Shown one piece after another: positions 1,794 through 18,213 of a stretch of DNA of 19,865 nt (positions are counted from its first letter, which is position 1; each line of letters begins with the position of its first letter). The notes below the pieces were generated by a model. The model saw nothing but the letters and a program-made list of their open reading frames with translations. It did not search any database and was not told the origin of the DNA. The position numbers and the translations under genes were made by a program. The DNA lies in NCBI GenBank assembly GCA_002753725.1, contig PEAL01000065.1, positions 1 to 19,865 of the forward strand, written 5' to 3'. The stretch comes from Deltaproteobacteria bacterium. Its GTDB lineage: Bacteria; Desulfobacterota; Desulfobacteria; Desulfobacterales; Magnetomoraceae.

Positions 1794-1814
1794 ATTCCTT
1801 ATTCCTTATTCCTT
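1794..1814. repeat. Three tandem copies of the 7-mer attcctt, overlapping the stop codon of the giant minus-strand gene.
   Basis: Read directly: attccttattccttattcctt. Confidence 0.4.
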
Positions 1815-5100: not shown

Positions 5101-8100
5101 TTTGCCCATACTGTTTGGGATGTGCTGATATTGCCAGCCCGGTCTTTTGACTGAACGTGAAGGAACCATCGGCCATTAATATTCTTTCCTGTAAAACAGG
5201 TCGTGGTATCAAAATCAGTTGAAAATTGTGCCTCGGAATGTTGAGTGAACGAATAACGCGATTTTACGCCGCTATCCTGATCAATTAATTGCCAGGCCCA
5301 TTGTTTGGACTGAACAGGATATGCAACAGAGGATAGCCCTTTTATTACAGGAGGAGTATTATCAAGAATACTTGACACTGTAACGATTTCACTGGTATTC
5401 CCAGCGCGATCCAGTGCCTGAACATGAATAAACCATGTCCCTTCAGCATTAGATAGATGAGCAGAGGTCACATGGGTAAAGGATGTTGTGGGGGATGCAT
5501 CGGCACGTTGATCGATAATATAGCGATGCAATACGTCTGGATCATTATCCAGGGTTGCCCATGTCCATGATTGATTCCTGACTGGATACAGATTATCTGT
5601 AAGTCCGATAATTTCAGGCGGGGTGTTGTCAATGATTGCAGAAACTGTGATGTGTTCACTAAGATTTCCTGCCTGATCTTTTGCCATAACATGCAAATAC
5701 CAGATGCCATCACCTTCTTCAATCGTGGCCTTGGCTTCTGGTTTGAATTGTCCAGATGGCGGTGCATCTTTATTTTGATCGATAGAAAATTGATAACTGA
5801 CGGTTTCATCCAAAGGTTCAGAATACCATGTCCATTTTTTCTGGTGTTTAGGTATAGAATCGTTTGAAAGCCCTTTAATGATTGGTGCTGTGTTATCCAA
5901 AATGGCTGAAACGCGAATTATTTCACTCAAATTGCCAGCACGGTCTTTTGCTTGAAGAAAAAGATAGCACATCTGATTTTCACCAGAGATTTCAACAGAT
6001 GTTTCATGCGTGTAAGAGCCGAACGGTTGTTTCTCAAGCGTTTTACTGATAGCATACCGATAGTCAAGGTATGGATCAGCATCATGGCCTTTCCATTGCC
6101 ATTTTTTTCTTTGTGTGGGAACGGGGTCATCATCTAACCCACTAATAACCGGGGCTGTGTTGTCCAGCAATTCAGAAACAGTGGCAACATTACTTTCATT
6201 TCCTGCGCGATCAATGGCCTGAACATGCAAATACCATCGGCCATCACCACTGGATATCGATGCCGTGTTCGTATATTGATAATTACCATCAGGTAAGGCG
6301 TTTTCATTTTGGGTGATTAAATACCGGTATACAATTTGGTGATCAGCGTCTTTTGCCTGCCAGTTCCATTTTATTTTTTTTACAGGATGCATTACAGGAG
6401 ATAATCCCGTGACTACCGGCTTTGTTGTATCGATGAGAGCTTTCACTGTAACCACAGAACTTAAATTGCCAGCAGTATCTTGTGCCTGTACATGGAGATA
6501 CCAAAGACCATCCGTTTCATAAATGGGTGTTGAATGAATCGTTGAAAAAATTCCCAATGGTTTGGAATCATAGAATTGATCAATTAAAATTCGAAAGCGA
6601 ACAGTGGGGTCAGCATCTTCTGCATGCCAAGAAAAAGATTTACTTCTTACCGGCGTTACTTCCCTGTCATCAGAAAGCCCCTTAATAACAGGCGGTAATT
6701 GATCCAACAGACAATATACATGATAAACCTTACTGAGATTGCCTGCCCAGTCTTTTGCCTGAACATGAAGATACCACCGCCCATCGACATCTTTAATTGT
6801 TGCGGTAGTTGTTTTTTTAAATTCTGTTTCAATGAGGGACTGTTCTTTCTGGTCAATGGTATACCGAAATGTCGCATTTTCATTTGAATGGGTTTTCCAG
6901 GCCCATATTTTCTGTTTTTTAGGAACGGAATCATTTTCAATACCCACAATTCTGGGAGGCACATTATCCAGAACCACAGAGACCGTGACAACATTGCTGA
7001 GATTTCCGGCGCGATCTGTTGCCTGAACATGGAGATAGCATAAGCCTTCAATATCTTTGGCAATCGCAGAATGTGTTGAATTAAACGGTCCTTCAGGTTT
7101 TGAATCAGGATGATGATCGATCAAATACCTGAAAAGAATAGTGGTATCATCATCCTTTGCTGACCATGTCCATCGTTTAACTGTTGTGGACGTTAATGAA
7201 TCAGACAGGCCGATAATTATTGGCGCTGTGGTATCAAGAATTGTCTGGACAGTGACAGTATTGCTTTCATTGCCTGCTGTATCGCATGCCTGAAGATGTA
7301 GATACCAGATACCATCATCATAATAATTTTTATCCAGTTGAATCATGCGGGTGAATGTATATGCACCTTTTGGATGAGAATCGGCAAACTGATCGACAAG
7401 ATATCGAAACCGAACATTGGGGTCAGCATCGTTTGCTGATAGCATCCATTTTTGTATGGACACTGGCGTAATCGAATGAGCAATATCATTAATGAGTGGT
7501 GGTATGGTGTCAATTGTAATGGATAACAACTCAGAAATACTGATATTTTCATCACTCTGGGTTTGATAATGTGCAGATAATTCATGTGTCCCTTCAGTCA
7601 AATCAATGTTAAACTGAAAAATATCTGCTGTGATGACTGTCGTTGCCCCTGATAAAGCATTTCCATCAACAAGAAGAACCACTGTCTGGTCGATATCTCC
7701 GAATCCTTGAATGTGTAAATTTTTAGATTGGCGGGTGATCCTATCGGTATTGAAAAAACCTGTATCATGTTCAGGTTCCAAGGATAGATTATATGGTTTT
7801 GGGTAGTGTGAATAAATGCCTTCTCCCCAGAAAATGTCAGCATGTTCTGTTTTATTCACCGCATTTTGTTTATTTCGAATATTGGTATACGCAATTGAAA
7901 TGGCATTGGAATCAGCATATTCAGACAAATAAATTTCATAGGGCATTTGTTCATTCCACAACGTTGCATGCGTCATAGTAAGAGAAGAATGATAAGCAAA
8001 AATGGCAGAGGAAACAGGGGCATCATTAACGGGGTGATTTTGGGTTAAAACCGTGCGAAATATATTTATCGTTGATTTTTGGGCGTAAATGGCTATTCCG

Positions 8101-8693
8101 GAAGTGGCTTTATTGTTCATCAATGTGACATTCGATAAGATCATATCTGAACCCTGACAATATATCCCTGCACCTGAACTGTTTGCTGTATTATGGACAA
8201 TGGCTGTTTGAGTGAGAGTCATGTTAGCGTACACGCAATATATACCACCGCCTTGTTCTGCGGTATTTTCTTTGATAATGACATTCACGAATTGAGGTGA
8301 TGCACCTCTGCAATAGACCCCTCCGCCGAGGTAAAAGGATTTTATGTCAGCTTTTCCATTGATGAGCGAAACATTACTGATGTGCGTTTTTTGATCCACA
8401 ATACCACCCAATGATTCATCAAAAAGCAACACACTTGAACGTTGGCAGCCATCAATGATTGTCTTGTTCTTGTCTTCACCAGACAGCTGAATGCCATTGA
8501 CTTTTGGCCATATAATATTTTCACGATAATTCCCATTTTTAATCAAAATGGTATCGTTGGATGTTGCAGAATTCAATGCTTGCTGGATGGTTTTAAAATC
8601 CGCTGGTACATGTAACATACGTGCATATGTGATTGAACATGCAAATAATAAAAAAAGAATACAAAATAAATATGGTTTAATGCTTGTTCTCAT
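1806..8693 (-). CDS. Giant cell-surface protein of about 2295 aa. It has a signal peptide, a right-handed parallel beta-helix domain, about 20 tandem Ig-like (beta-sandwich) repeats and a C-terminal OmpA-like peptidoglycan-binding domain. Adhesin-like.
   Basis: Continuous ORF 1806-8804. The start is assigned to the ATG at 8693, where the N-terminus MRTSIKPYLFCILFLLFACSITYA-RM is a classic Sec signal peptide. The upstream in-frame part overlaps the preceding gene. The C-terminus carries the OmpA/MotB-type motif HTDNSGDEDKNVELSQQRADYIRTYL...GYGETRP...EGKLKNRRAE. The N-terminal region has GGGVYC/GGGIYC/GAGIYC motifs typical of parallel beta-helix (PbH1) repeats. The middle carries about 20 repeats of consensus W.W...D.D....YRY.IDQ....P.G.F....A.I...DG.WYLHVQA.D.AGN.S.V.TVSAILDNTPP.I.GL. 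Confidence 0.85.
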   Translation of the reverse strand: MRTSIKPYLFCILFLLFACSITYARMLHVPADFKTIQQALNSATSNDTILIKNGNYRENIIWPKVNGIQLSGEDKNKTIIDGCQRSSVLLFDESLGGIVDQKTHISNVSLINGKADIKSFYLGGGVYCRGASPQFVNVIIKENTAEQGGGIYCVYANMTLTQTAIVHNTANSSGAGIYCQGSDMILSNVTLMNNKATSGIAIYAQKSTINIFRTVLTQNHPVNDAPVSSAIFAYHSSLTMTHATLWNEQMPYEIYLSEYADSNAISIAYTNIRNKQNAVNKTEHADIFWGEGIYSHYPKPYNLSLEPEHDTGFFNTDRITRQSKNLHIQGFGDIDQTVVLLVDGNALSGATTVITADIFQFNIDLTEGTHELSAHYQTQSDENISISELLSITIDTIPPLINDIAHSITPVSIQKWMLSANDADPNVRFRYLVDQFADSHPKGAYTFTRMIQLDKNYYDDGIWYLHLQACDTAGNESNTVTVQTILDTTAPIIIGLSDSLTSTTVKRWTWSAKDDDTTILFRYLIDHHPDSKPEGPFNSTHSAIAKDIEGLCYLHVQATDRAGNLSNVVTVSVVLDNVPPRIVGIENDSVPKKQKIWAWKTHSNENATFRYTIDQKEQSLIETEFKKTTTATIKDVDGRWYLHVQAKDWAGNLSKVYHVYCLLDQLPPVIKGLSDDREVTPVRSKSFSWHAEDADPTVRFRILIDQFYDSKPLGIFSTIHSTPIYETDGLWYLHVQAQDTAGNLSSVVTVKALIDTTKPVVTGLSPVMHPVKKIKWNWQAKDADHQIVYRYLITQNENALPDGNYQYTNTASISSGDGRWYLHVQAIDRAGNESNVATVSELLDNTAPVISGLDDDPVPTQRKKWQWKGHDADPYLDYRYAISKTLEKQPFGSYTHETSVEISGENQMCYLFLQAKDRAGNLSEIIRVSAILDNTAPIIKGLSNDSIPKHQKKWTWYSEPLDETVSYQFSIDQNKDAPPSGQFKPEAKATIEEGDGIWYLHVMAKDQAGNLSEHITVSAIIDNTPPEIIGLTDNLYPVRNQSWTWATLDNDPDVLHRYIIDQRADASPTTSFTHVTSAHLSNAEGTWFIHVQALDRAGNTSEIVTVSSILDNTPPVIKGLSSVAYPVQSKQWAWQLIDQDSGVKSRYSFTQHSEAQFSTDFDTTTCFTGKNINGRWFLHVQSKDRAGNISTSQTVWANFDTIPPTIEGLSSDINPVSQKKWIWHGKDQDTELMYRYAINPFEQYTPSGPFSDITYAEISNNHGIFYLHVQARDRADNVSNVVTVSARLDTIAPEIVDINVDPIPTQQKKWSWRARDDDPHVMYRYVITQHPEIKPSGTFAYTNTVSFSDGEGVFYLSIQAKDTAGNLSPIKTVSAIIDRTAPSLSGLSDIHQPMKSHTWRWYGKDTDANIYYRYSIDQKQRSQPTGSFNSINQASLSHTEGLWFIHVQARDSANNISDVVTASIVIDTTLPVITGLNNVLIPAQTIHWQWQVEDNDSYTQYRYQVDQLANGIPTTSFTDHHSCELSNGEGTWYLHVQARDRAGNLSDIVTVSAIIDRSSPIITGITDYLTPVQKKVWSWDAANEVSCLYRYTIDQTSDSVPTGEYTNISQATLKQSNGKWYIHIQAKDQAGNISPVTTAVAILDNQSPKIFGLEDDKVPHQQKEWHWNSHDAHTDVRYRYVIDQNFESIPTGLFKNITKARIADKDGTWYLHVQAKDYAGNLSSVKTVSAILDNEPPILIQLASDTTPSTSKQWQWSAKDNDLFIQYRYIIDQNAYTVPKNQFSQITQARLENENGLFYLHVQAQDRAFNISNVLTVHCVLDNKPPVITHLSNDDTPVQSKQWQWRANDDDEQIAYRWLLDQRSDAEPTGSFTHTNETGLSNANGVWYFHIQGKDRAGNVSATKTVYAILDRIPPEIEGLADHLIPQKQIQWSWTARDADSNILYRYHIDQKPETSPSTVFSPVFQAHLSDVNGRWYIHVQAQDRAGNISAVKTVSAIIDNQKPMINGLQDDPVPLQRKTWSWNATDMDQQVTFRWVINSSEISVPSGPFKDHHTAEISEGDGKRYIHVQATDRAGNISEVYTVSALLDNTPPVFDTMINDIIPQKIKQWTWHAKDNDPIIHYRYVIDQKPTSIPSGDFQSITQTTLSQKDGRWFIHLQARDRAGNVTPVQSAFAQLTTSDTSLHYDLNVHFYASAIKPISHARINALGKLLNQYPDVYATIEAHTDNSGDEDKNVELSQQRADYIRTYLIKTFNISSQRLTSKGYGETRPITENVTPEGKLKNRRAEAIIFYKE
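2190..7505 (-). repeat. Tandem array of about 20 diverged ~265-bp repeats, each encoding an ~88-aa Ig-like domain with a YLHVQA.D.AGN.S motif.
   Basis: The motif WYLHVQA[KRQT]D[RQT]AGN[LI]S recurs about every 88 residues in the translation. The DNA shows recurring blocks such as ccattgccattgtttgga and cctgaacatg(a/t)a(g/a)ataccat at the same period. Confidence 0.8.
7604..8612 (-). other. Right-handed parallel beta-helix (pectate-lyase-fold, PbH1-repeat) domain in the N-terminal part of the giant protein.
   Basis: Consecutive short repeats with hydrophobic/Gly ladders: GGGVYCRGASPQFVNVII, GGGIYCVYANMTLTQTAIVHN, GAGIYCQGSDMILSNVTLMNN, SGIAIYAQKSTINIFRTVLTQN. Confidence 0.6.
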
Positions 8694-8704: not shown

Positions 8705-10858
8705 TTAATTGACGACAATCGAATAAAAATAATAAAAATAACCTGCTATCATAAAAAGAGATAAAAAAAGTCCTGTACATTTTACTCTTGGTATTGCCTG
8801 ACAAAAGCCTTTTCGATTCAAGCCGGCAATAATAAGTGTCAACACAAATGAAAGGCCTGTCATAAGGTAAAGAAGAATAAACCAGTGATCAAATGGGATA
8901 AGATAATCAACAGATATTTCAGACAGGAAGTAATATAAGAACGATACCACTCCCAGGCATGACAGATGGGCAAACATCGCAATCAGTGTATGGGAAGGAA
9001 TGATGAATAAAAGGCAGGATAAAAGACCCATAATAATGCATCCAGGAACAAAACATCGCAACCACTGATGAAAAGAATCTCGATGAATAAGGATTTGAAT
9101 TCTATAATCCGGGTTATGTTCTTGATTAAATTGCGAATAATCAACCTTAGGTTGCGTTGTCATGCCATAAGCATAGCAGCGATTCAGTTTCCAGTTGGAA
9201 AGGTTAAATCGATCATTGTCATTGAGACTGATTTCTTTGTTAATATATCTCATTTCATTACTTTTTAATGTATTATGATAAAAATGAATACCTAACTTTT
9301 GTTTATCAAAAGGGTATGTATGGTACAAAAAATTTATCTTAAAGGATCCCTTAATGCTGTATTTTTTATACAAGACACCATCAAGGGTTCCACTTTCAAC
9401 AGGATCGTCTAAAACAACAGGTGTTGTTGCATTTAAAAAGCAAATATCTGCGGGGTCGATTACCGGGGTGTCATACAAGAATGTCAGAAAAAAATGAGCC
9501 GTAAAGAACGATTCTTTTATATCCAGTTCAACGATTTCAGTTTTTACCTGAACAATCGATACGTGTTGAATATCTGATTCATAAGGATTTGTATGGTTTA
9601 ATTTAGATTTCATGTCCATCAGAAACTGTTGGTGAAAAGGAACAAGTACCCCTTTTTGATAGTGACCCAGACCTGTATTTTTTATTGCATTTCCATTATC
9701 ATCAAAAAAGATATCACCGCAGATTCCTTTAAAAGCATAATCAGGTTTCTTTATATCGGTAAGAAAATTTTTTATTTGACGTCTGTACTGGTAAGATCGT
9801 GCAGTGGGGTCAATTTCCATTTTTCTAAGAATATCTGCCATCAGAAGTGTGGCATCATAATAATTTGTTGCAATAGACGATGGAACGTTACGATATTTTT
9901 CATAATAGGCCTTAAAAAAGTCTACAGATTGAGAATTAAACAAATAATTCGCAAAGATATCATTTGCAGTTGTGAAAACACCATCTGAATAATAACCAGG
10001 AATTGATTTTTCCAGGGCAATTGTTCGTAATTCGTTTTGAAACGATTCATATGAAAATACATGACCATTGGTTATAAAAAAGTGAGGATCAAAAGCGTTT
10101 AATTTTTCAATAATCTGAACAGCCAGGCGATCAGATGTTGCAATAAAAACAGAGCTTTTTGCTTTAGATGTTTTAAACATTCTAACGATGGTTTGCAGTT
10201 GTGGATAAATATTTTTTTCTTCATCAATATCAATTGTATTTTCAATTTTAATGCCGTTATTTTTGAAAAAATTCATATATGTATTTTTGATATCACGACT
10301 ATAAATATCTTTAGATGCAATAATGGTTACAGGTGACCATTTACAATACTGCTTTGAAAACATAGCCAGAAATGTTGCCTGATGGAGAGAGGATGGTATG
10401 GATCGAAAATACCATTCATTGTTTAATGTAACATTCGTTGCTGGTGCTGAGGCGGTAATCGCGGGGATACCTTCTTTTAAATAAACCTGCCCGGCAGAAA
10501 AACTGGCAGCGCTGCTATAATGCCCAATAACAAAAAGCAGATGGTCATTTCTTGAGAATGAATTGGCAACTTTCATGGCAAGATTGGTTTTATTCATGTC
10601 ATCTTTATAGATATATTTCAATTTTTTACCATCAATACCGCCATTTGCATTGATTTTTTCTATACATAAATCAATACCCCGAAGCATTTCTTTGCCATAT
10701 TCTTCATCCGCCCCACTGAATGGGCCTGCAACACCAAACAGGCACACATCTTGATCACTGTGATAGATATCAAATACACTCAATAGTAGTAGTATACCGA
10801 TAAACAGTATCACAATTAAAATAATCAATAGGCCTTTATTTAAAATGAATTGTTTCAT
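8705..10858 (-). CDS. Fusion protein of 717 aa. An N-terminal type I periplasmic binding domain (Leu/Ile/Val-binding, LIVBP/ANF-receptor-like) is joined to a pentameric ligand-gated ion channel core (extracellular beta-sandwich plus 4-TM pore domain).
   Basis: N-terminal TM/signal segment, then the LIVBP-like signature GPFSGADEEYGKEMLRGIDLCIEKINANGGIDGKKLKYIYKDD...LLFVIGHYSSAAS...AITASA. Residues about 432-595 match the pLGIC extracellular-domain pattern: beta1 VSIVQVKTEIVELDIKESFFTAHFFLTFLYDTP, then the Pro-loop hallmark YPFDKQKL (codons 9316-9305), then a pre-M1 Arg in IQILIHRDS. M1 with its conserved Pro follows (WLRCFVPGCIIMGLLSCLLFIIP), then three more TM helices with a short M3-M4 loop, as in prokaryotic GLIC/ELIC-type channels. 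Confidence 0.8.
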   Translation of the reverse strand: MKQFILNKGLLIILIVILFIGILLLLSVFDIYHSDQDVCLFGVAGPFSGADEEYGKEMLRGIDLCIEKINANGGIDGKKLKYIYKDDMNKTNLAMKVANSFSRNDHLLFVIGHYSSAASFSAGQVYLKEGIPAITASAPATNVTLNNEWYFRSIPSSLHQATFLAMFSKQYCKWSPVTIIASKDIYSRDIKNTYMNFFKNNGIKIENTIDIDEEKNIYPQLQTIVRMFKTSKAKSSVFIATSDRLAVQIIEKLNAFDPHFFITNGHVFSYESFQNELRTIALEKSIPGYYSDGVFTTANDIFANYLFNSQSVDFFKAYYEKYRNVPSSIATNYYDATLLMADILRKMEIDPTARSYQYRRQIKNFLTDIKKPDYAFKGICGDIFFDDNGNAIKNTGLGHYQKGVLVPFHQQFLMDMKSKLNHTNPYESDIQHVSIVQVKTEIVELDIKESFFTAHFFLTFLYDTPVIDPADICFLNATTPVVLDDPVESGTLDGVLYKKYSIKGSFKINFLYHTYPFDKQKLGIHFYHNTLKSNEMRYINKEISLNDNDRFNLSNWKLNRCYAYGMTTQPKVDYSQFNQEHNPDYRIQILIHRDSFHQWLRCFVPGCIIMGLLSCLLFIIPSHTLIAMFAHLSCLGVVSFLYYFLSEISVDYLIPFDHWFILLYLMTGLSFVLTLIIAGLNRKGFCQAIPRVKCTGLFLSLFMIAGYFYYFYSIVVN

Positions 10859-10889
10859 AAGTTGCTATAAATTATATAAATTATTATTC

Positions 10890-13037
10890 TTAAAGCGGAA
10901 AACAACAGTTGACCACATAAAAAGATATCATCATTATCGTAATCAAACATGCTGCCTTTCCCAAAAATTGAACGAACGCCATTGATTGCTTATAATGATG
11001 GATCGATAAGCCTATCAGTCCCATTTGAAACATGATTGTCAACCCAATAAAACCATACAAACACATAAACAGCATTTCAGAGAATGTCAGAAATGGTATG
11101 TGTAATTTGAAATATAAATGGCATACAGTAGTGATCATCAGGAATATGATATTGATCACCAATGAAATTTTTATTCGATGCACAGGACAAAAATAACTGA
11201 TCGATGTCAGTAGAAAAAGAATAAGACAGGCAATAAAAATAAGCTTTTCCTGCTGATTCAGGCGCCTTTGAATATGAATATCAACAGCGAATTCAGATGC
11301 GTTATTCTTAATATCTCCTGACAATGGGCTTTTTATTAAATAAGGCATCGCGTCCACAGATAGCCATGTTTCAGAATTCAATTTAAAACTTATTTTATTT
11401 AGCTGATCAATAGCAAATATAAACGTGTTTGTGTTTACGCTTGTATCCCGAAAACTTATGGTCAGTTTTTGGCTGTCTATGGGATATCGTTTAAGGTCAA
11501 AGTGATGATAAAATACACTATCCACGGTGTATAACAGATGTGTGGTACCTTGTTTATTCATAGTTTTTTTAGGATTTTTCAATACAAGCGGAGAAACAGC
11601 GTTGGTAAATTGAATCCATTCAGGTTGAAAATGCTTTTGAAAACTAAACCAGAGATTAAACCGGGCATGAAATGTACCATCTATCGTATTGATTTGATTT
11701 AATTGAATATCATCTATCCTTACATACACTAATTGTTTTTTGATAAAATAATCATCATTGTTTGCCATAACGTCATTATCTAATGCTTTTTGAATCAAAT
11801 CATTGGAAATATCATTGAGTGAAACAGCGATGTATTGATGAAAGGCGGGAATATAATGGCCCTTGTATAATTGAGTGACAATCATTGACTTTTTCGTTTC
11901 GCCAACACCATTAAAAAATATTTTTCCGGTTAAGCCCTCCACACAGTGATTCCTATCATAGAATGTTTCAAGTGCATTTTTGAATTTTTTTCTGATGTCC
12001 CGGATAGCCCCCTGTATCTCAATTTTTCTTAATGCTTCAATGCTAACATGTGCCAGATCATAAGATGTCGTACTGATTAATGAAGGCGGTACTCCATAAA
12101 AGGTATAATAATTCTTTTCAAAAATTCTATTGATTTGTTTTGAAAAATACTGAGAAAACAACGATACAGAGTAGATACCATTTGAATAAAAACCGGGTGA
12201 GGATTGTTCTTTGGGATACGCTTTGAATCCATCGATAAAAATTTGAGATGCCAAGGAATCTGCGCCCATAATGATTTGATTCAGTTGCTTCTTTTTCAAA
12301 CCAACCACCAATTTTACAGACGTATCAGCGTGGGTTGCCAAAAAAAACATATCAGGTTTTAACGCATGCGTATCAATGGCCTGTACAATAGTATCAACCT
12401 GATCATCCATACTCGTTGAACTCGAATCCAATGGATATTGTTCAACAATCTCAATTCCTTTTTCCAGTGCTTGTTCTGTAAATACTGCTGCTAAATTTTT
12501 ACCATATGCCCCTGTATCATAAACAATCGTTGCGGTTTTAAGATTCAATGCTGATTGTGCGTAAGCAGCAAGAAAATCACTTTGACAGGAATTTGGTGGG
12601 ACAATTCTGAACAACCATTCATTCATAATCGGCAAGTCATCAGATGTTGCTGAACCGGTTATTGATGGAATCATGTTGTTTTCATAAATAGAGGCAGCCG
12701 CAGTGCAGCAGGAACTGAAATAATGTCCCAGAACAAAAAGAATGTCCTTGTTTCGAACAATTTGTTTTGCTGCACCGACAGCGCCTTCTTCGGTGCCTTT
12801 ATCGTCAAAAACAAGCAGCTTGATCTGGCTGCCATGAAGTCCTCCTGAGGCGTTTATTTGATCAATATAGAATTGTACCCCTTTAACCATTTCATTTCCA
12901 TAAAAAGACTGGGAACCACTGAATGTACTCGCAACCGCAATATAAAGCGTTTTCTTGCCATAATACAAATGAATCGTATAAAATATGGAAATCAACATGC
13001 TTATCAGTAAAATTATAATAATATATTTTTTCATCAT
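10890..13037 (-). CDS. Paralogous LIVBP-like periplasmic binding domain / pentameric ligand-gated ion channel fusion, 716 aa.
   Basis: Start assigned to the ATG at 13037 (MMKKYIIIILLISMLISIFY...), 2 nt after the upstream stop. The longer ORF to 13094 would overlap the upstream gene. LIVBP signature TFSGSQSFYGNEMVKGVQFYIDQINASGGLHGSQIKLLVFDD...ILFVLGHYFSS...SITGSA. pLGIC hallmarks: VYVRIDDIQLNQINTIDGTFHARFNLWFSF, Pro-loop YPIDSQKL (11486-11475), pre-M1 IHIQRR, M1 LIFIACLILFLLTSISYFCP, and three more TM helices at the C-terminus. Confidence 0.75.
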   Translation of the reverse strand: MMKKYIIIILLISMLISIFYTIHLYYGKKTLYIAVASTFSGSQSFYGNEMVKGVQFYIDQINASGGLHGSQIKLLVFDDKGTEEGAVGAAKQIVRNKDILFVLGHYFSSCCTAAASIYENNMIPSITGSATSDDLPIMNEWLFRIVPPNSCQSDFLAAYAQSALNLKTATIVYDTGAYGKNLAAVFTEQALEKGIEIVEQYPLDSSSTSMDDQVDTIVQAIDTHALKPDMFFLATHADTSVKLVVGLKKKQLNQIIMGADSLASQIFIDGFKAYPKEQSSPGFYSNGIYSVSLFSQYFSKQINRIFEKNYYTFYGVPPSLISTTSYDLAHVSIEALRKIEIQGAIRDIRKKFKNALETFYDRNHCVEGLTGKIFFNGVGETKKSMIVTQLYKGHYIPAFHQYIAVSLNDISNDLIQKALDNDVMANNDDYFIKKQLVYVRIDDIQLNQINTIDGTFHARFNLWFSFQKHFQPEWIQFTNAVSPLVLKNPKKTMNKQGTTHLLYTVDSVFYHHFDLKRYPIDSQKLTISFRDTSVNTNTFIFAIDQLNKISFKLNSETWLSVDAMPYLIKSPLSGDIKNNASEFAVDIHIQRRLNQQEKLIFIACLILFLLTSISYFCPVHRIKISLVINIIFLMITTVCHLYFKLHIPFLTFSEMLFMCLYGFIGLTIMFQMGLIGLSIHHYKQSMAFVQFLGKAACLITIMMISFYVVNCCFPL

Positions 13038-13039
13038 AT

Positions 13040-15721
13040 TTAATTCAGTTGCCAATCTTTGATATTCTGTCCACCAAGAGCCATATGAGACCAATTTTTA
13101 ATGCGTGGTTTTATAAGGTAATGGTCGGTTTCATAGAAAATGGGGATTACAAGCGTCTCTCTTTGGGTCAGAATCTCATCGATCATTAAATAATAGTCTT
13201 TTCTTAAATGTAAATTTTTTTCTTTTATGGCTTTATTCAACACATCAGATAATTCTGTATTGATATAACTGTTCTGGCGGCTAAGCTTGTTATATGAATC
13301 AAACAAAAAACTATTGGCATCAGGAAAAGTCGCATACCAGTCAGAAATGAAAATATGAGCCTGTCTGGGATTGTATGAACCAGGTTCTGTAAGACCGATG
13401 ACAGTGGATTGAAGATTCAATCTTTTTTTAAGTAGTAATGAAATCGCTTTGGCAATTTGTTTATGGGAATCATGGATTCCTGAATCAATTAGAATTGCAG
13501 GGCATCCTTTTCCGCCAGGATAGCCCGCTTCGGCTAACATTTTCATGGCATGAGTGGGATGGTAAACAGGCCGTTTCTCCTGACTTGACAGCAATAATAA
13601 ATCAGGGGGTATAAACATTTTCATTGCCTTTTGTTGCCCATGAATGACGAACCTGGTAATAAATGAGCGATCAATAACAGACGCAATGGCTTTTCGTAAC
13701 AAAACATTATCCACAGGGGATTGATTCACATTGAAAAAAAGGCCGGTTGTAGAAAAATTGGTACGTTCTTGATAGTCATGTCGGGTTTCAGGTTGCTTTT
13801 TGACCGAATCAAGAAAACGCGATGGGATGTTTATAAAAGCCCCCCCAAGAATATCCAGTTGATTGTTTTGATACATATGCAAAGCAAGCAGGCTGTTCAT
13901 GATAACGTTATAACGCACTTCCTGAATGGCAACAGTTGAAGCATCATAATAGCGGTCATTTTTTCGTAAAATAATCAAAGAGCCTTTTTCATGACAAGCC
14001 AGTTGAAAGGGACCATTACTGACAATATGTTCAGGGGCTGTCCATTCAGCAGCCCATTTTTGAATCGTTGCCGAAGGCAGAGGGCTGAAAACAGGCAGTC
14101 CGGTGATTGAAGGAAAAAATGCAGCAGGATAGGACAGGATAAAATCAATGGTATAATCATCAATAACGTTGACCCCCAGTTTTGATGCATCTTTGATGAA
14201 TCCTAGATGAATGTCCTGGGCATTTTTGAGTATGAATAAGTGTTTTACATCCGGGCATTGGGTTTCAGGGGTCAAATTTCTAACTATTGCAAATCTCAGA
14301 TCGTGAGCTGTCACCGGCTGTCCGTTTGTCCAGAACACATTTTTTCGCAATTTAAACCGGTAACGATCTAAGGTTTCATTCGGTTCCCAACTCGTGGCAA
14401 AGTCCGGGGAAGACTGATAGGTGTCAGGATGGTATTGAGTCAGGCGTATAAACAATTGCTTTGATAATTCAGTTGTTATTTTATCATGGGCAAGCCCCGG
14501 GTCTAATCGTGAAACATCATTGTTACAAAACCTGTTTATATTGAAAGAATCGACCAGGTCAAAAAAATCATCCTGCTTTTTTTCTTTTCGATTAATAATG
14601 ACAAATTTTCCATCTTCATATTTTTTAAAAAATAAAGCGGATGGCCCGATATTTCCTTGTCGTGTCAGATGATATTGACTTAAAACACCATCCCAATGTT
14701 CCATGAATCTAAGAGTTGTATTTAAAACCATTGGTAAACATGAATTACTTTTTTCCATTGACGTTTTAAGCAAATGAATCAGATCATAACCCCGGGCAGC
14801 AAATGTTTCAGGCTCAACGCCAAAGGCTTGCGTAAAACTGGAAACAAAATCTTGTGTTAATTTTCTGGGAAGTGTGTTGTCAAAGTTGCTTGGGATGATG
14901 GTTCCTTCAGCTTTTTTTCCAGTATTACTCCAAAAATAGCGTGTGTCAATTTCATCGGTGGCCATAATTGGGGTATTGATATTCAACTCTCTCATCTGAT
15001 TTACCACCAATGCTGCGATGTTATCTCTGCATAATAATAAAACAATGTCAAAGGATTCATTTTTTAAATCACTTAAGATATCTCTGAAATTTGTTTCAGA
15101 TCGAGAAAAGGATTGTTGAGATACAATCGCAAGGCCTTTTTGTGTGGCCTCTTCATAAAAAATATCAGCAAGAATCTTACTGGTTTTCTGGCGGTCATTA
15201 AGGATAATAATGCGCTGATAGTGGTTTTGAGAGAAACATTCAGCAATTCTTCTAACATATACTTGATCTGGCATATAATTATTAAAAATATAGGCCCCGC
15301 CATAGCGTAATAAATCCGCCCCTGTAGAAAAAAATAATATGCCAGCTTCTTTGTATACGATTGATGCAGAAATAGCATTTTGAGGACTAAAATGTCCGAT
15401 AACAGCAAAAACATTTTTATTTTTAGCTAATTTTTCTGCAATGCGAATGGATGTTTTTTCATCATCATAATCATAAAACAAAAGCGGTCTGATCCTTTTC
15501 CCCATAACGCCGCCATCGCTGTTTATTTCATCCATAGCCAGTTTAACGCCATGAGCAAACTGTGTGGTAGCAGGGAATGCGTCCACAATTCCAATGAAAA
15601 GATCATCGGTTGATCGGGTCAAATGCTTCATGCGCTCTTCATTGGAAATAACCTTGTTACATGAAAAAAATGTAAGAAGGAGTACAATAAAAGCAAAATG
15701 TAAAACGATGATTGGTTTCAT
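13040..15721 (-). CDS. Predicted lipoprotein of 893 aa made of two complete solute-binding domains. Residues about 38-375 are type I (LIVBP-like). Residues about 395-893 are solute-binding protein family 5 (OppA/DppA/NikA-like peptide or nickel-binding type).
   Basis: Signal peptide with a Cys at residue 21 (LLLTFFSC, a non-canonical lipobox). LIVBP signature IGIVDAFPATTQFAHGVKLAMDEINSDGGVMGKRIRPLLFYDYDD...VFAVIGHFSPQ...FFSTGA. The second half begins LDPGLAHDKITTELSKQLFIRLTQYHPDTYQSSPDFATSWEPNETLDRYRFKLRKNVFWTNGQPVTAHDLRFAI. That matches the conserved N-terminal block of family-5 SBPs (LDPA.A.D..S...L.......G.I.P.LA.SWE.S.DG..Y.F.LRKGV.FHDG.P.TA.DV.FS) and continues to the end of the protein. 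Confidence 0.8.
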   Translation of the reverse strand: MKPIIVLHFAFIVLLLTFFSCNKVISNEERMKHLTRSTDDLFIGIVDAFPATTQFAHGVKLAMDEINSDGGVMGKRIRPLLFYDYDDEKTSIRIAEKLAKNKNVFAVIGHFSPQNAISASIVYKEAGILFFSTGADLLRYGGAYIFNNYMPDQVYVRRIAECFSQNHYQRIIILNDRQKTSKILADIFYEEATQKGLAIVSQQSFSRSETNFRDILSDLKNESFDIVLLLCRDNIAALVVNQMRELNINTPIMATDEIDTRYFWSNTGKKAEGTIIPSNFDNTLPRKLTQDFVSSFTQAFGVEPETFAARGYDLIHLLKTSMEKSNSCLPMVLNTTLRFMEHWDGVLSQYHLTRQGNIGPSALFFKKYEDGKFVIINRKEKKQDDFFDLVDSFNINRFCNNDVSRLDPGLAHDKITTELSKQLFIRLTQYHPDTYQSSPDFATSWEPNETLDRYRFKLRKNVFWTNGQPVTAHDLRFAIVRNLTPETQCPDVKHLFILKNAQDIHLGFIKDASKLGVNVIDDYTIDFILSYPAAFFPSITGLPVFSPLPSATIQKWAAEWTAPEHIVSNGPFQLACHEKGSLIILRKNDRYYDASTVAIQEVRYNVIMNSLLALHMYQNNQLDILGGAFINIPSRFLDSVKKQPETRHDYQERTNFSTTGLFFNVNQSPVDNVLLRKAIASVIDRSFITRFVIHGQQKAMKMFIPPDLLLLSSQEKRPVYHPTHAMKMLAEAGYPGGKGCPAILIDSGIHDSHKQIAKAISLLLKKRLNLQSTVIGLTEPGSYNPRQAHIFISDWYATFPDANSFLFDSYNKLSRQNSYINTELSDVLNKAIKEKNLHLRKDYYLMIDEILTQRETLVIPIFYETDHYLIKPRIKNWSHMALGGQNIKDWQLN

Positions 15722-15746: not shown

Positions 15747-16616
15747 TTAATTTTTATCACCATTTGTTTCTGTATTCAGAATTAAAGGCAATCCATTCTT
15801 GCCACTGCCAATAATAATAATTTTTGAATTTTGTGATTCTGCAAGTTTTTCAGTGGCTTTAATCCCTTGCCAATTGAGATATTGTTCTTTATTGAAAAGG
15901 GATGATGCAATGGTGTTCAAATGATCTCGGATACCTTCTGCTTCAATTCTTTTTCGGGTTGCTTCTTTTTTTTCTCGCTCAATAACATAAGTATGGGCTT
16001 CCGCCAGATGTTTTTGTTTGATTTTATTACGAATGGATTCGGCCACTTCTTCAGGAAGTATGATCCCCCGAACAAGAACATCATCAATATTGATATAGCG
16101 TTGAGCGACCTGTTCTATGGCTTTATTGATAGCCTCCACAATTAATTTTCTTCCCGTGGTGTAAACTTCTTCAGCATTCAATGTACCAATAATTTCACGA
16201 ATAACAGCTTCTATTTCAGGAATAATCACCTTATCCGCATACTCCATTCCCACTTGCTGATGTAATACACCAAGAAGTTTATATTCAGGCGCATAGCGAA
16301 TAGAGAGTTTAATATGAACTTGCAAACCATTTTTAGTGAGGACATCCATTTCCGGTTTAATTTCCTGGATACGAACATTATAGACGTACATTTTATCCCA
16401 GGGAAGAATTAAGTGAAGACCTTCTGAATAAACAGAAAGGATATCTGTTCCACCAAAAAAACGACTCCAAAACACCGCTGCTTCACCTGGATAAATATTG
16501 TATACAATCATATTAAACAGGAAAGCAAAGGTCAATAAAGCAATCAAAATGGTCAGAATGAGAGAAAAGGTATAATTTTTTAATTTGATAAAAAAGTTCT
16601 TGAACCTGTTTTTCAT
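15747..16616 (-). CDS. SPFH/band-7 (stomatin/prohibitin/HflC-like) membrane-scaffold protein, about 290 aa.
   Basis: N-terminal single TM segment (FSLILTILIALLTFAFLF) followed by the SPFH core YPGEAAVFWSRFFGGTDILSVYSEGLHLILPWDKMYVYNVRIQE...DVLTKNGLQVHIKLSIRY and a C-terminal coiled-coil-like KQKHLAEAHTYVIEREKKEATRKRIEAEGIRD. Start taken at the ATG at 16616 (MKNRFKNFF...). The ORF is open up to 16697. Confidence 0.8.
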   Translation of the reverse strand: MKNRFKNFFIKLKNYTFSLILTILIALLTFAFLFNMIVYNIYPGEAAVFWSRFFGGTDILSVYSEGLHLILPWDKMYVYNVRIQEIKPEMDVLTKNGLQVHIKLSIRYAPEYKLLGVLHQQVGMEYADKVIIPEIEAVIREIIGTLNAEEVYTTGRKLIVEAINKAIEQVAQRYINIDDVLVRGIILPEEVAESIRNKIKQKHLAEAHTYVIEREKKEATRKRIEAEGIRDHLNTIASSLFNKEQYLNWQGIKATEKLAESQNSKIIIIGSGKNGLPLILNTETNGDKN

Positions 16617-18198: not shown

Positions 18199-18213
18199 AC
18201 AGGTTTTGTAACA

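What the first reader, a model, noticed from the sequence alone, without database searches (positions are those of the whole stretch)
8705..13037. Two tandem genes fuse a LIVBP-type periplasmic binding domain to a pentameric ligand-gated ion channel (Pro-loop receptor)
Both proteins carry the full set of pLGIC hallmarks downstream of a type I periplasmic binding domain. The beta1 pattern is V.V.V..EI..LDI...F.A.FFL. The FPFD-type Pro-loop appears as YPFDKQKL and YPIDSQKL, without the flanking cysteines, as in prokaryotic family members. A pre-M1 arginine is followed by M1 with its conserved proline, and a compact 4-TM pore domain ends the protein.

The appended binding domain belongs to the same fold class (LIVBP/ANF-receptor) that forms the amino-terminal domains of eukaryotic ionotropic glutamate receptors and the ligand sites of mGluR/GABA-B receptors. 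Here it is grafted onto a Cys-loop-type channel. From memory, not checked here, binding-protein/pLGIC fusions have been predicted in comparative-genomic surveys of prokaryotic channels. To my knowledge none has been characterised functionally or structurally. Two diverged paralogs side by side suggest either two ligand specificities or a heteropentamer.
Basis: partly seen in the sequence, partly recalled or inferred. Interest (0 to 1): 0.85.

Follow-up and report, generated by a model that had tools for sequence, protein, structure and literature searches.

The report
Binding-protein domain fused to pentameric channel
Two neighbouring genes of a multicellular magnetotactic bacterium each join an amino-acid-binding "Venus flytrap" domain to a bacterial relative of the nicotinic/GABA-A receptor channel, a fusion predicted from genomes in 2004, common in metagenomes, and with no experimental study found in the searched literature.

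Summary
Two minus-strand genes, geneA (8705-10858, 717 aa) and geneB (10890-13037, 715 aa), each encode five parts in order:
- an N-terminal hydrophobic anchor;
- a LivJ-type periplasmic binding domain (Pfam Peripla_BP_6, E 1e-32 and 9e-38);
- a short linker;
- a pLGIC beta-sandwich with a Pro-loop (YPFDKQKL / YPIDSQKL, no flanking cysteines);
- four transmembrane helices.

Pfam channel models miss both proteins when scanned alone. A 14-member family profile hits GLIC/ELIC structures at E 5e-18. An AlphaFold model of the geneA C-terminal part matches whole pLGIC subunits (TM 0.6-0.74).

The architecture is not new. Tasneem et al. (2004) described PBP-I/pLGIC fusions. An exhaustive search found 1455 clusters at 50% identity, and nearly all of the best ones carry the binding domain.

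What is added here:
- The pair belongs to a conserved cassette: SPFH protein, a lipoprotein fusing a PBP domain to an OppA-like domain, B subunit, A subunit.
- A and B are old paralogues kept in a fixed order.
- Both depart from the family's pore-lining pattern, and geneB lacks the M1 proline.
- The residue that recognises the alpha-amino group is Asp in B and His in A.

Verdict: a new member of a known, uncharacterised kind. Gating and ion conduction are inferred.

The parts
8705..10858 (-). geneA: A-type PBP-pLGIC subunit, 717 aa (NCBI name: ABC transporter substrate-binding protein, Candidatus Magnetomorum sp.)
   Evidence: ORF and translation. Identical to P0001 on contig JADFYV010000091.1.
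10775..10831 (-). geneA N-terminal hydrophobic segment (aa 10-28): signal anchor or uncleaved signal peptide
   Evidence: Kyte-Doolittle window score 3.55. The hydrophobic stretch is about 21 residues long and no obvious cleavage site was seen by eye. The role is inferred.
9680..10735 (-). geneA LivJ-type periplasmic binding (Venus-flytrap) domain, aa 42-393
   Evidence: Pfam Peripla_BP_6 E 1.2e-32 and ANF_receptor E 1.6e-23. PDB phmmer hit to 4mlc at E 1.9e-20 and to LivJ (1z15) at E 3.8e-13.
9080..9559 (-). geneA pLGIC extracellular beta-sandwich with Pro-loop YPFDKQKL, ending at the pre-M1 Arg (aa about 434-593)
   Evidence: AF2 strands 16-175 of the C-terminal fragment. Foldseek matches to GLIC/GABA-A/GluCl. 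Conserved columns.
8708..9073 (-). geneA four-helix pore domain M1-M4 (aa about 596-717). M2 has 2' Phe, 6' Ser, 9' Gly, 13' Phe and 16' Tyr.
   Evidence: AF2 helices 178-198, 203-227, 237-265 and 270-298 of the fragment. M2 register taken from the alignment with GLIC/ELIC/GABA-A references.
10890..13037 (-). geneB: B-type PBP-pLGIC subunit, 715 aa
   Evidence: ORF and translation. Gene call of 715 aa on the source contig. 26% identical to geneA over the full length.
11868..12947 (-). geneB LivJ-type periplasmic binding domain, aa 31-390. The Asp of the GADS motif lies at the alpha-amino-recognition position.
   Evidence: Pfam Peripla_BP_6 E 9.2e-38. Foldseek match to LivJ 4gnr, TM 0.89 normalised to the target. 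Alignments to LivJ and to 4nqr/4obb.
11271..11771 (-). geneB pLGIC extracellular beta-sandwich with Pro-loop YPIDSQKL (aa 423-589)
   Evidence: AF2 full-length model, strands 423-589. phmmer hit to sTeLIC 6fl9/6fvq at E 1.5e-5.
10902..11258 (-). geneB four-helix pore domain (aa 594-712). It lacks the mid-M1 Pro. M2 has -2' Lys, 2' Val, 6' Ile, 9' Met, 13' Val and 16' Leu.
   Evidence: AF2 helices 594-616, 619-642, 652-679 and 683-712. Column table.
13040..15721 (-). Upstream operon partner: an 893-aa predicted lipoprotein that fuses a Peripla_BP_6 domain to an OppA-like SBP_bac_5 domain. Only 2 bp separate it from geneB.
   Evidence: Pfam SBP_bac_5 E 2.4e-62 and Peripla_BP_6 E 5.8e-30. NCBIfam OppA-type models at E 2.4e-45, below their cut-offs. 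N-terminus MKPIIVLHFAFIVLLLTFFSC. Syntenic.
15747..16616 (-). First gene of the cluster: membrane-anchored SPFH/Band_7 protein, 289 aa
   Evidence: Pfam Band_7 E 6.5e-25. One N-terminal TM-like segment. Syntenic in L002, L003, L005, L009 and in 11 genome loci.
1806..8693 (-). Last gene of the cluster: a 2295-aa surface protein with Ig-like and OmpL47-type repeats and a C-terminal OmpA peptidoglycan-binding domain. It starts 11 bp after geneA. Whether it belongs functionally to the cassette is uncertain.
   Evidence: Pfam Big_13 and OmpA. NCBIfam OmpL47-type barrel domain. Syntenic only in the Magnetomorum-like loci L002, L003, L009 and L010.

Best explanation
geneA and geneB encode subunits of a cytoplasmic-membrane pentameric ligand-gated ion channel of the prokaryotic Pro-loop family. 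Each subunit carries its own periplasmic LivJ-type Venus-flytrap sensor.

Topology (inferred). An N-terminal hydrophobic helix takes the chain across the membrane. The flytrap domain and the pLGIC beta-sandwich then lie in the periplasm. M1-M4 form the pore domain.

Mechanism (inferred). A small amino-acid-like ligand closes the flytrap. That movement passes through the 20-30-residue linker onto the beta-sandwich. The conserved coupling elements (Pro-loop Asp, pre-M1 Arg, M2-M3 loop Tyr/Phe) then open or modulate the M2-lined pore. A periplasmic chemical signal is thereby converted into an ion flux or a change in membrane potential.

Subunit relationship. A and B are ancient paralogues kept side by side in a fixed order. 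They therefore most likely work together, either as a heteropentamer or as two receptors of one pathway. Their ligand chemistry differs: B keeps the Asp that recognises an alpha-amino group, and A has His there.

Accessory genes. The co-transcribed lipoprotein (flytrap + OppA-like peptide-binding domain) and the SPFH protein are probably accessory sensor and scaffold components.

What is shown and what is not. The domain identities, the fold, the family size and the synteny are shown. Pentamer formation, ligand identity, gating, conduction and heteromer formation are all inferred.
For: Domains.
- Peripla_BP_6 and ANF_receptor score above Pfam cut-offs.
- The flytrap fold matches LivJ at TM 0.89.
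- The family profile hits GLIC/ELIC structures at E 5e-18.
- geneB alone hits sTeLIC at E 1.5e-5.
- The geneA C-terminal model matches whole pLGIC subunits.

Gating hardware, counted over 157 relatives.
- Pro-loop Pro is kept in 151 and Asp in 138; both are present in A and B.
- The pre-M1 Arg is kept in 141 and is present in both.
- The M2-M3 loop Tyr is kept in 129; A has Tyr and B has Phe.

Ligand site.
- The equivalents of LivJ Tyr18 and Ser79 are kept in both A and B.
- The position mutated in the Anabaena protein (N280D) is Asp in all 5 B-types examined. It is His, Asn or Asp in A-types. In that Anabaena protein the wild type was crystallised with a 3-methyl-2-substituted compound (name truncated in the output) and the mutant with a compound whose name is truncated.

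Not a transporter part. No ABC permease or ATPase gene lies in the cluster in the window or in the syntenic loci.

Operon. Five same-strand genes are separated by gaps of 25, 2, 31 and 11 bp.

Co-function.
- The cassette is conserved in L002, L003, L009 and L010.
- Its core (SBP5 gene directly upstream of a PBP-pLGIC gene) occurs in about 24 of about 54 genome loci. These include the cultured Desulfonema magnum.
- A-clade members are 38-66% identical to each other and B-clade members 42-62%, against about 25% between the clades.
- First and second genes of tandem pairs fall in separate clades.
Against: - Neither protein alone reaches any Pfam pLGIC model.
- M2 departs from the family pattern of 0' Arg, small or polar 2' and 6', and 9' Leu. 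geneA has 0' Ala, 2' Phe and 9' Gly. geneB has 0' Ser, 2' Val, 6' Ile and 9' Met, so its predicted lumen is entirely hydrophobic.
- The M2 register is uncertain by about one residue, because the GLIC and ELIC alignments disagree.
- geneB lacks the M1 proline.
- Several B-type orthologues lack the pre-M1 Arg.
- Flytrap domains usually act as dimers, which sits awkwardly on a five-fold assembly.
- No multimer model, no ligand and no electrophysiology are available.
Confidence: 0.62

Rival explanations
1. The proteins keep the pLGIC scaffold but no longer conduct ions. They would act as periplasmic ligand receptors or structural hubs, for example by recruiting the SPFH protein, the lipoprotein and the giant OmpA-domain surface protein. 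The four helices would serve only as a membrane anchor or oligomerisation module.
For: - Pore-lining positions diverge from the family consensus in both paralogues. In geneB every predicted lumen position from 2' to 16' is hydrophobic, and geneA has 9' Gly and 2' Phe.
- geneB has lost the M1 proline.
- B orthologues often lack the pre-M1 Arg.
- Both proteins are too diverged for the Pfam channel models.
- The genes are tightly linked to a huge cell-surface protein in this lineage.
Against: - Both proteins keep the Pro-loop Pro and Asp and the pre-M1 Arg; the M2-M3 loop residue is Tyr in geneA and Phe in geneB.
- A- and B-specific M2 motifs are themselves conserved among orthologues, for example CLG in 7 of 8 A-types. 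That argues for selection on M2.
- Hydrophobic M2 gates are normal in closed pLGICs (established knowledge of the family).
- A heteromer could combine a small 9' residue (A) with a bulky one (B).
Confidence: 0.2
2. A and B form two independent homopentameric channels that sense different ligands. Their adjacency would reflect only co-regulation, not a heteromer.
For: - The flytrap binding-site residues differ systematically. At the alpha-amino-recognition position B has Asp and A has His, Asn or Asp. At the LivJ Thr102 position B has Thr and A has Pro or Ser.
- Many relatives occur as single genes, so homomers must be viable in the family.
- Tasneem et al. argued for homopentamers in bacteria.
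Against: - The B-then-A order is conserved at only 44-45% orthologue identity.
- First and second genes of pairs form separate clades across Desulfobacterales. This pattern is expected of obligate partners.
- Each paralogue alone has an odd M2, 9' Gly versus 9' Met.
Confidence: 0.3
3. The database annotation is right: these are substrate-binding proteins of an ABC amino-acid importer.
For: - NCBI names them 'ABC transporter substrate-binding protein'.
- The N-terminal 390 residues are a genuine LivJ-like binding domain.
Against: - About 300 further residues form a pLGIC core.
- No permease or ATPase gene lies in the five-gene cluster, here or in four syntenic loci.
- NCBIfam LivJ-type models score far below their cut-offs (83.7 and 91.9 bits against 477).
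Confidence: 0.02

Closest known systems
PBP-I + ART-LGIC (Cys-loop homologue) fusions predicted by Tasneem, Iyer, Jakobsson & Aravind 2004 (Genome Biol 6:R4, PMC549065)
   Same: - The domain order is the same: an N-terminal type I periplasmic binding domain, then the pLGIC ligand-binding domain, then the 4-TM channel.
- That paper also noted operon links between bacterial pLGICs and stand-alone PBP-II-type binding proteins. The SBP_bac_5 gene upstream here resembles that link.
   Different: - Their examples were single genes in alpha-proteobacteria.
- Here there is a fixed pair of old paralogues in Desulfobacterales.
- The pair sits in a cassette with an SPFH protein and a lipoprotein that itself fuses a PBP-I domain to an OppA-like domain.
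- Both paralogues have an atypical M2.
- I did not place the window proteins and the 2004 examples in one tree.
GLIC, ELIC, sTeLIC (structurally solved prokaryotic pLGICs)
   Same: - The extracellular beta-sandwich, a Pro-loop without cysteines, the pre-M1 Arg, a four-helix pore domain and a short M3-M4 loop are shared.
- They are the best sequence and fold matches.
   Different: - They have no N-terminal binding domain.
- Identity to them is only 12-14% in the fold alignments.
- The window proteins have a shorter extracellular domain (about 165 aa) with a low-confidence segment between the last two beta-strands.
- The window proteins have different M2 lining.
DeCLIC (Desulfofustis pLGIC with an N-terminal domain)
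   Same: - It is a prokaryotic pLGIC from the same broad group of sulfate-reducing deltaproteobacteria.
- It also has an extra periplasmic N-terminal domain that modulates gating.
- A 2022 paper states it is the only NTD-bearing family member with a solved structure (PMC9897478).
   Different: - The DeCLIC N-terminal domain is two beta-rich jelly-roll lobes and the channel is calcium-sensitive.
- Here the extra domain is an alpha/beta Venus flytrap of the LivJ family.
Eukaryotic ionotropic glutamate receptors and class C GPCRs (mGluR, GABA-B)
   Same: They use the same LIVBP/ANF-receptor fold as an extracellular sensor or modulatory domain placed ahead of a membrane signalling module. mGluR ectodomains appear among the sequence and fold hits.
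   Different: - The membrane module is unrelated: a tetrameric P-loop channel or a 7-TM receptor, against a pentameric Pro-loop channel here.
- Those flytrap domains work as dimers.
- This is a resemblance of design, not family membership.
LivJ/LivK-type ABC-transporter substrate-binding proteins
   Same: - These give the best sequence and fold matches for the N-terminal 390 residues.
- Several ligand-contact positions are kept.
   Different: - The domain here is covalently tethered to a channel.
- No ABC transporter genes lie nearby.

Membership tests
Pentameric ligand-gated ion channel (Pro-loop / Cys-loop) superfamily | Extracellular ten-stranded beta-sandwich domain directly preceding the membrane domain | tested here: met
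   AF2 models show strands at 423-589 (geneB) and at 16-175 of the geneA fragment. Foldseek aligns about 315-320 columns to complete GLIC, GABA-A and GluCl subunits with TM 0.6-0.74 and E about 3e-15.
Pentameric ligand-gated ion channel (Pro-loop / Cys-loop) superfamily | Pro-loop motif (aromatic-Pro-aromatic/aliphatic-Asp) between beta6 and beta7 | tested here: met
   The motif is YPFD in geneA and YPID in geneB. In the aligned columns Pro is present in 151 of 157 relatives and Asp in 138 of 157, in register with GLIC and ELIC. There are no flanking cysteines, as in the prokaryotic members.
Pentameric ligand-gated ion channel (Pro-loop / Cys-loop) superfamily | Pre-M1 arginine followed by four transmembrane helices M1-M4 | tested here: met
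   Arg is at the conserved column (141 of 157 relatives) in both proteins. Four helices are seen in both models and four hydrophobic segments in the hydropathy scan.
Pentameric ligand-gated ion channel (Pro-loop / Cys-loop) superfamily | Conserved proline in the middle of M1 | tested here: inconclusive
   geneA has it (VPG). geneB has Ala at that column, where 135 of 157 relatives have Pro. Three of four other B-type orthologues keep the Pro. The feature is met for geneA and not met for geneB.
Pentameric ligand-gated ion channel (Pro-loop / Cys-loop) superfamily | Significant match to the curated family models (Pfam Neur_chan_LBD / Neur_chan_memb, TIGR00860) | tested here: inconclusive
   Neither protein hits a Pfam model at E<=1. 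TIGR00860 matches geneB at E 0.036. Relatives do hit: 5 of 14 match Neur_chan_LBD (best 3.6e-6) and 2 of 14 match Neur_chan_memb. The family profile against PDB pLGICs gives E 5e-18.
Pentameric ligand-gated ion channel (Pro-loop / Cys-loop) superfamily | M2 pore lining with a hydrophobic 9' Leu/Ile gate and small or polar 2' and 6' residues | tested here: not met
   The wider fusion family fits the pattern: 0' Arg in 104 of 157, 6' Ser/Gly/Thr/Asn, 9' Leu in 81 and Ile in 21. geneA has 2' Phe, 6' Ser and 9' Gly. geneB has 2' Val, 6' Ile and 9' Met. The register is uncertain by about one residue.
Pentameric ligand-gated ion channel (Pro-loop / Cys-loop) superfamily | Assembly as a pentamer around a central pore, with ligand-gated ion conduction | not testable with these tools
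   Only monomer prediction was available. No experiment was possible.
Type I periplasmic binding protein / LIVBP (Peripla_BP_6, ANF_receptor) | Sequence match above the curated cut-off and a two-lobed Venus-flytrap fold | tested here: met
   Peripla_BP_6 scores 114.4 and 131.2 bits against a cut-off of 31.7. Foldseek matches the model to LivJ 4gnr with TM 0.89 normalised to the target and rmsd 2.3.
Type I periplasmic binding protein / LIVBP (Peripla_BP_6, ANF_receptor) | Amino-acid main-chain recognition residues of LivJ (Tyr18, Ser79, Ala100-Thr102, acidic residue for the alpha-amino group). The LivJ residue roles are recalled from memory. | tested here: inconclusive
   The Tyr18 and Ser79 equivalents are kept in A and B. 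The Thr102 equivalent is kept in B and is Pro in geneA. The acidic position (the N280 site of Anabaena 4obb/4nqr) is Asp in B and His in geneA.
ABC-transporter substrate-binding protein (functional class, as annotated by NCBI) | A free or lipid-anchored binding protein encoded with permease and ATPase genes | tested here: not met
   The domain is fused to a 300-aa channel core. No permease or ATPase gene lies in the cluster in the window or in L002, L003, L009 and L010.
PBP-I + pLGIC fusion architecture (Tasneem et al. 2004) | A single polypeptide: PBP-I domain, then pLGIC extracellular domain, then 4-TM channel | tested here: met
   Of 161 relatives with the channel domain, 154 also carry the PBP domain. 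The architecture is described in PMC549065.
DeCLIC-type NTD-bearing pLGICs | N-terminal domain made of two beta-rich jelly-roll lobes | tested here: not met
   The N-terminal domain here is an alpha/beta LivJ-type flytrap. The DeCLIC domain is described in PMC9897478.

The most novel reading that the evidence does not exclude
The conserved cassette (SPFH scaffold, lipoprotein with flytrap + OppA-like peptide-binding domains, two co-evolving flytrap-pLGIC subunits) is a dedicated chemical-to-electrical signalling device. In Magnetomorum a giant surface protein is added to it. It would be used for communication between the cells of multicellular and filamentous bacteria: magnetotactic multicellular prokaryotes, Desulfonema, Thioploca/Beggiatoa relatives, filamentous cyanobacteria and Chloroflexi. 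In that reading it is a prokaryotic analogue of a heteromeric neurotransmitter receptor with auxiliary subunits, gated by a released amino acid or peptide.
Probability: 0.1. Interest if true: 0.85.

Novelty: new member of a known kind. Interest (0 to 1): 0.5.

Why it matters
pLGICs are the receptors for acetylcholine, GABA, glycine and serotonin. The bacterial members GLIC and ELIC became the structural models for the whole family. A 2022 paper states that DeCLIC is the only one with an extra N-terminal domain whose structure is known, and its extra domain has a different fold.

A Venus-flytrap/pLGIC fusion would show how a separate ligand-binding module can drive or tune a Pro-loop channel. 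It is the same design logic that eukaryotes use in glutamate receptors, on an unrelated pore.

This analysis gives experimenters concrete handles:
- a large natural family (1455 clusters at 50% identity);
- members in a cultured organism with a complete genome (Desulfonema magnum);
- a conserved A/B pair that may be a rare bacterial heteromeric pLGIC;
- candidate auxiliary proteins (SPFH, OppA-like lipoprotein);
- a binding-site residue (Asp against His/Asn) that predicts different ligands.

It also corrects a systematic misannotation, since these proteins are labelled "ABC transporter substrate-binding protein".

Tried and rejected
- Pfam and NCBIfam scans of the two proteins alone gave no pLGIC hit at E<=1, apart from TIGR00860 at E 0.036 for geneB. 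A family profile was needed.
- The search for homologous proteins with the geneB C-terminal 306 aa found nothing, not even geneB itself. The two-sequence full-length profile worked.
The full-length alignment worked through a PBP motif, so that sample is biased towards close PBP sequences.
- Foldseek with the full-length model returned only binding proteins among the 50 listed hits. A separate C-terminal model was needed.
- The afdb50 fold library was not available.
- The promoter and terminator scan gave no more promoter-like sites than shuffles (52 against 60.5 expected) and is not used as evidence.
- The paper PMC7306758 (DeCLIC structure) is not held in the library.
- The idea that the genes are ABC-transporter binding proteins was rejected (see rival explanations).
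- The idea that the C-terminal part is a generic 4-TM bundle without a beta-sandwich was rejected.
- I tried to read ion selectivity from the -2'/-1'/0' positions. I dropped this because the GLIC- and ELIC-based registers differ by one residue and the residues (Leu-Ile-Ala in A, Lys-Ile-Ser in B) fit neither canonical signature.

Full report
**1. What is in the sequence**

The finding spans two adjacent ORFs on the minus strand. geneA lies at 8705..10858 (717 aa). geneB lies at 10890..13094 as an ORF, with the sensible ATG at 13037 giving 715 aa.

The window is the reverse complement of most of contig JADFYV010000091.1 of assembly GCA_015232875.1. The same two genes are called there. NCBI names geneA [quoted passage not shown]. 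The genus belongs to the Desulfobacterales. From my own knowledge, Magnetomorum is a multicellular magnetotactic prokaryote.

The two proteins are 26% identical over their whole length.

**2. N-terminal half**

- Both proteins match Pfam Peripla_BP_6 (E 1.2e-32 and 9.2e-38) and ANF_receptor (E 1.6e-23 and 5.6e-21), well above the curated cut-offs.
- They match LivJ/LivK-type structures by sequence.
- The AlphaFold2 model of full-length geneB has mean pLDDT 80.3 and pTM 0.73.
- That model superposes on LivJ-type binding proteins. The best is 4gnr, with TM 0.89 normalised to the target and rmsd 2.3.
- Metabotropic glutamate receptor ectodomains also appear among the hits.

**3. C-terminal half**

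Sequence evidence:
- The motifs YPFDKQKL and YPIDSQKL are there, without flanking cysteines.
- On their own the proteins do not reach Pfam Neur_chan_LBD or Neur_chan_memb even at E<=1.
- geneB gives TIGR00860 (LIC) at E 0.036.
- Against PDB sequences, geneB (aa 471-687) hits sTeLIC at E 1.5e-5 and GLIC at about 2e-4. geneA hits ELIC only at E 0.11.
- A two-sequence full-length profile retrieved 13 full-length relatives of 700-793 aa.
- The profile of the 14 C-terminal domains hits GLIC, ELIC and their chimeras at E 5e-18 to 3e-14, from the Pro-loop through M4. The beta1-beta2 strands align weakly in the expected place.
- Five of the 14 members hit Neur_chan_LBD individually (best 3.6e-6), and two hit Neur_chan_memb.

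Fold evidence:
- The geneB model shows strands at 423-589 and then helices at 594-616, 619-642, 652-679 and 683-712.
- A separate model of the geneA C-terminal 299 residues (pLDDT 79.4) shows the same layout.
- Foldseek matches that model to complete pLGIC subunits (GLIC, GABA-A, GluCl, glycine receptor). E is about 3e-15, TM is 0.6-0.74, and about 315-320 columns align.

The literal "Pfam hit" test, however, succeeds only at family level.

**4.

I aligned 157 channel domains of the family with GLIC, ELIC and GABA-A alpha1 segments taken from tool output.

Conserved in the family and present in both proteins:

| Feature | Relatives with it (of 157) | geneA | geneB |
|---|---|---|---|
| Pro-loop Pro | 151 | yes | yes |
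| Pro-loop Asp | 138 | yes | yes |
| Pre-M1 Arg | 141 | yes | yes |
| M2-M3 loop Tyr | 129 | Tyr | Phe |
| Mid-M1 Pro | 135 | Pro | Ala |

Three of four other B-type orthologues keep the mid-M1 Pro.

The wider family has a canonical M2: 0' Arg in 104 of 157, 6' Ser/Gly/Thr/Asn, 9' Leu in 81 and Ile in 21. The two window proteins do not:

| M2 position | geneA | geneB |
|---|---|---|
| -2' | Leu | Lys |
| 0' | Ala | Ser |
| 2' | Phe | Val |
| 6' | Ser | Ile |
| 9' | Gly | Met |
| 13' | Phe | Val |
| 16' | Tyr | Leu |

- The A-specific motif Cys-Leu-Gly is conserved in 7 of 8 A-type orthologues. These are therefore selected states, not decay.
- The register is uncertain by about one residue, because the GLIC- and ELIC-based alignments differ.
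- Each protein also has one strongly hydrophobic N-terminal segment (aa 10-28 in geneA, aa 6-24 in geneB) in addition to M1-M4.
- At roughly 18-21 residues it looks more like a signal anchor than a cleaved signal peptide. This is inference; no signal-peptide predictor was available.

**5. How common is it**

- An exhaustive HMMER search of 1.84 billion cluster representatives used the two channel domains as a profile. It gave 1455 proteins at E<=1e-3 and 473 at E<=1e-10.
- Most of the 150 best are 700-800 aa long, with the channel domain starting near residue 410-440.
- With my own HMMs, 154 of 161 channel-bearing relatives also carry the binding domain.
- Sampled members confirm Peripla_BP_6 by Pfam.
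- In species-representative genomes the family occurs in several groups:
  - Desulfobacterales, including three loci in the complete genome of cultured Desulfonema magnum;
  - Thiotrichaceae (Thioploca, Marithrix, Halobeggiatoa);
  - cyanobacteria (Xenococcus PCC 7305, Dapis, Pleurocapsa, Spirulina, Trichodesmium);
  - Chloroflexi, Lentisphaerales and others.

**6. Is it known**

- Tasneem et al. [quoted passage not shown] They draw the parallel to NMDA and metabotropic glutamate receptors.
- They also note operons with stand-alone PBP-II proteins, and they propose a chemotaxis-receptor role.
[quoted passage not shown] Its N-terminal domain is two jelly-roll lobes. A 2025 paper still treats DeCLIC as the model system for such accessory domains.
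- Full-text searches found no functional or structural study of a PBP-pLGIC fusion.
- The library lacks many subscription papers, so absence is not proof.

**7. Context: a conserved cassette**

In the window, five minus-strand genes follow each other with gaps of 25, 2, 31 and 11 bp:

1. An SPFH/Band_7 membrane protein at 15747..16616.
2. An 893-aa protein at 13040..15721. It has a lipoprotein-like N-terminus (…LLLTFFSC) and fuses a Peripla_BP_6 domain to an OppA-like SBP_bac_5 domain.
3. geneB.
4. geneA.
5. A 2295-aa protein at 1806..8693 with Ig-like and OmpL47-type repeats and a C-terminal OmpA domain.

Conservation of the arrangement:
- The same five-gene order occurs twice in Ca. Magnetomorum HK-1 (L002, L010), in a Logan assembly (L003) and in an ENA contig (L009). 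In L010 the contig starts inside the lipoprotein gene, so the Band_7 gene cannot be seen there. In L009 a HepT-like gene is inserted between B and A.
- Distant single-gene relatives (P0011, P0012) have a stand-alone SBP_bac_5 gene immediately upstream.
- P0009 has Band_7, the PBP6+SBP5 fusion and two PBP-pLGIC genes.
- I scanned all fetched loci with my own HMMs. Among about 54 genome loci with the fusion:
  - an SBP5 gene, fused to PBP6 or alone, lies directly upstream in about 24;
  - a Band_7 gene is present in 11;
  - tandem pairs occur in about 13.
- None of these clusters shows ABC permease or ATPase genes next to the channel genes.

**8. The two paralogues**

- A-type proteins (geneA, P0002-P0008) are 38-66% identical to each other.
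- B-type proteins (geneB, the HK-1 B protein, P0020) are 42-62% identical to each other.
- A and B are only about 25% identical. That is no closer than either is to unrelated family members.
- In a rough neighbour-joining tree, the first and second genes of tandem pairs form separate clades, both in the Magnetomorum group and in other Desulfobacterales.
- A fixed, long-lived gene pair is the pattern expected of partners. It does not prove a heteromer.

The flytrap binding sites also differ:
- Both keep the equivalents of LivJ Tyr18 and Ser79.
- The LivJ Thr102 position is Thr in B and Pro or Ser in A.
- The position that distinguishes Anabaena 4obb (Asn) from its N280D mutant 4nqr/4nv3 (Asp) is Asp in all five B-types examined. 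It is His in geneA, and Asn or Asp in other A-types.
- One search gives the truncated descriptions: 4obb "in complex with (3S)-3-methyl-2-…" and 4nv3 "N280D mutant … in complex with v…".
- I infer that B senses an alpha-amino acid and A something else. The assignment of LivJ residue roles rests on my memory of the LivJ/LivK literature.

**9. Most likely mechanism**

Each gene encodes a subunit of a cytoplasmic-membrane pentameric channel whose periplasmic flytrap binds a small ligand. Closure of the flytrap is transmitted through the linker to the beta-sandwich. It then passes through the conserved Pro-loop / pre-M1 / M2-M3 coupling elements to M2. The OppA-like lipoprotein and the SPFH protein are probably an auxiliary sensor and scaffold.

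The domain identities, fold, abundance and synteny are shown. Topology, pentamer formation, ligand, gating, conduction and heteromer formation are inferred.

The main rival is a non-conducting receptor or scaffold, suggested by the odd M2 lining and the lost M1 proline of geneB.

**10. Verdict**

The object is a new member, with lineage-specific peculiarities and a newly described gene cassette, of an architecture predicted in 2004 that is abundant in metagenomes and still uncharacterised as far as I could find. It is of moderate interest as an experimental lead. It is not a surprise to specialists.

Noticed in passing
P0014 (1127 aa) and P0015 (1146 aa), relatives found; not in the window: These proteins carry Peripla_BP_6 plus a pLGIC-type extracellular beta-sandwich. 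In P0014 my channel HMM aligns only through positions 16-206, at residues 415-623. In P0014 what follows is not the pLGIC four-helix bundle but MscS-type channel domains (Pfam MS_channel_2nd; MS_channel_3rd too in P0015) and a cNMP_binding domain. In P0015 the channel HMM aligns over positions 12-322 (residues 432-769), so the bundle may be retained there. A pentameric-family ectodomain on a channel from a heptameric family (my recollection of MscS) would be an unusual chimera.
   Followed up: partly
P0039 (878 aa), relative found: The protein has PBP + pLGIC through M3, then a cyclic-nucleotide-binding domain (aa 742-829) before the last ~50 residues. The domain apparently sits in the M3-M4 loop position, like a eukaryotic-style intracellular domain.
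   Followed up: no
P0076, P0087, P0094, P0100, P0111, P0112, P0159, P0057: About 25 of 161 relatives carry a second extracytoplasmic domain after M4: SBP_bac_1/SBP_bac_8, Bmp/PnrA-like, or cadherin. These channels have a binding protein at both ends. This parallels the separate SBP5 lipoprotein in the window's operon.
   Followed up: partly
window 13040-15721 (-): An 893-aa predicted lipoprotein fuses a LivJ-type Peripla_BP_6 domain to an OppA-like SBP_bac_5 domain, with no membrane domain. It ends 2 bp before geneB. The same fusion, or a stand-alone SBP5 gene, precedes PBP-pLGIC genes in many distant genomes.
   Followed up: partly
window 1806-8693 (-): A giant 2295-aa protein has a lipoprotein-like N-terminus, Ig-like (Big_13, Big_6) and OmpL47-type barrel repeats, and a C-terminal OmpA peptidoglycan-binding domain. 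It starts 11 bp after geneA. It is syntenic with the channel pair in four other Magnetomorum-like loci (1545-2762 aa, some truncated by contig ends).
   Followed up: partly
loci L011-L064: Many of the genomes holding this family are, from my own knowledge, filamentous or multicellular bacteria: Desulfonema magnum, Thioploca, Marithrix, Halobeggiatoa, Trichodesmium, Dapis, Spirulina, Pleurocapsales, Chloroflexi, Ca. Moduliflexus and Ca. Magnetomorum. No control for genome size or sampling was done, and the search motif biases the sample.
   Followed up: no
L009 6026-6427: A HepT-like (toxin-antitoxin nucleotidyltransferase-substrate family) gene is inserted between the B and A channel genes in one syntenic metagenomic contig.
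   Followed up: no
window 191-967 (+) and 973-1566 (+): These are two small plus-strand ORFs at the low-GC (0.30-0.33) end of the window. The first has only a weak TrbL/VirB6 match (E 7.6e-4, below the cut-off) and the second has no family. On the source contig, gene calls in this stretch are sparse (a 50-aa and a 149-aa gene) and do not correspond to these two ORFs.
   Followed up: no
window 16819-19716 (+): Two genes are transcribed divergently from the cassette: an FAD-dependent oxidoreductase (459 aa) and a TPR protein with a C-terminal SlipAM-like (surface lipoprotein assembly modulator) beta-barrel (500 aa).
   Followed up: no
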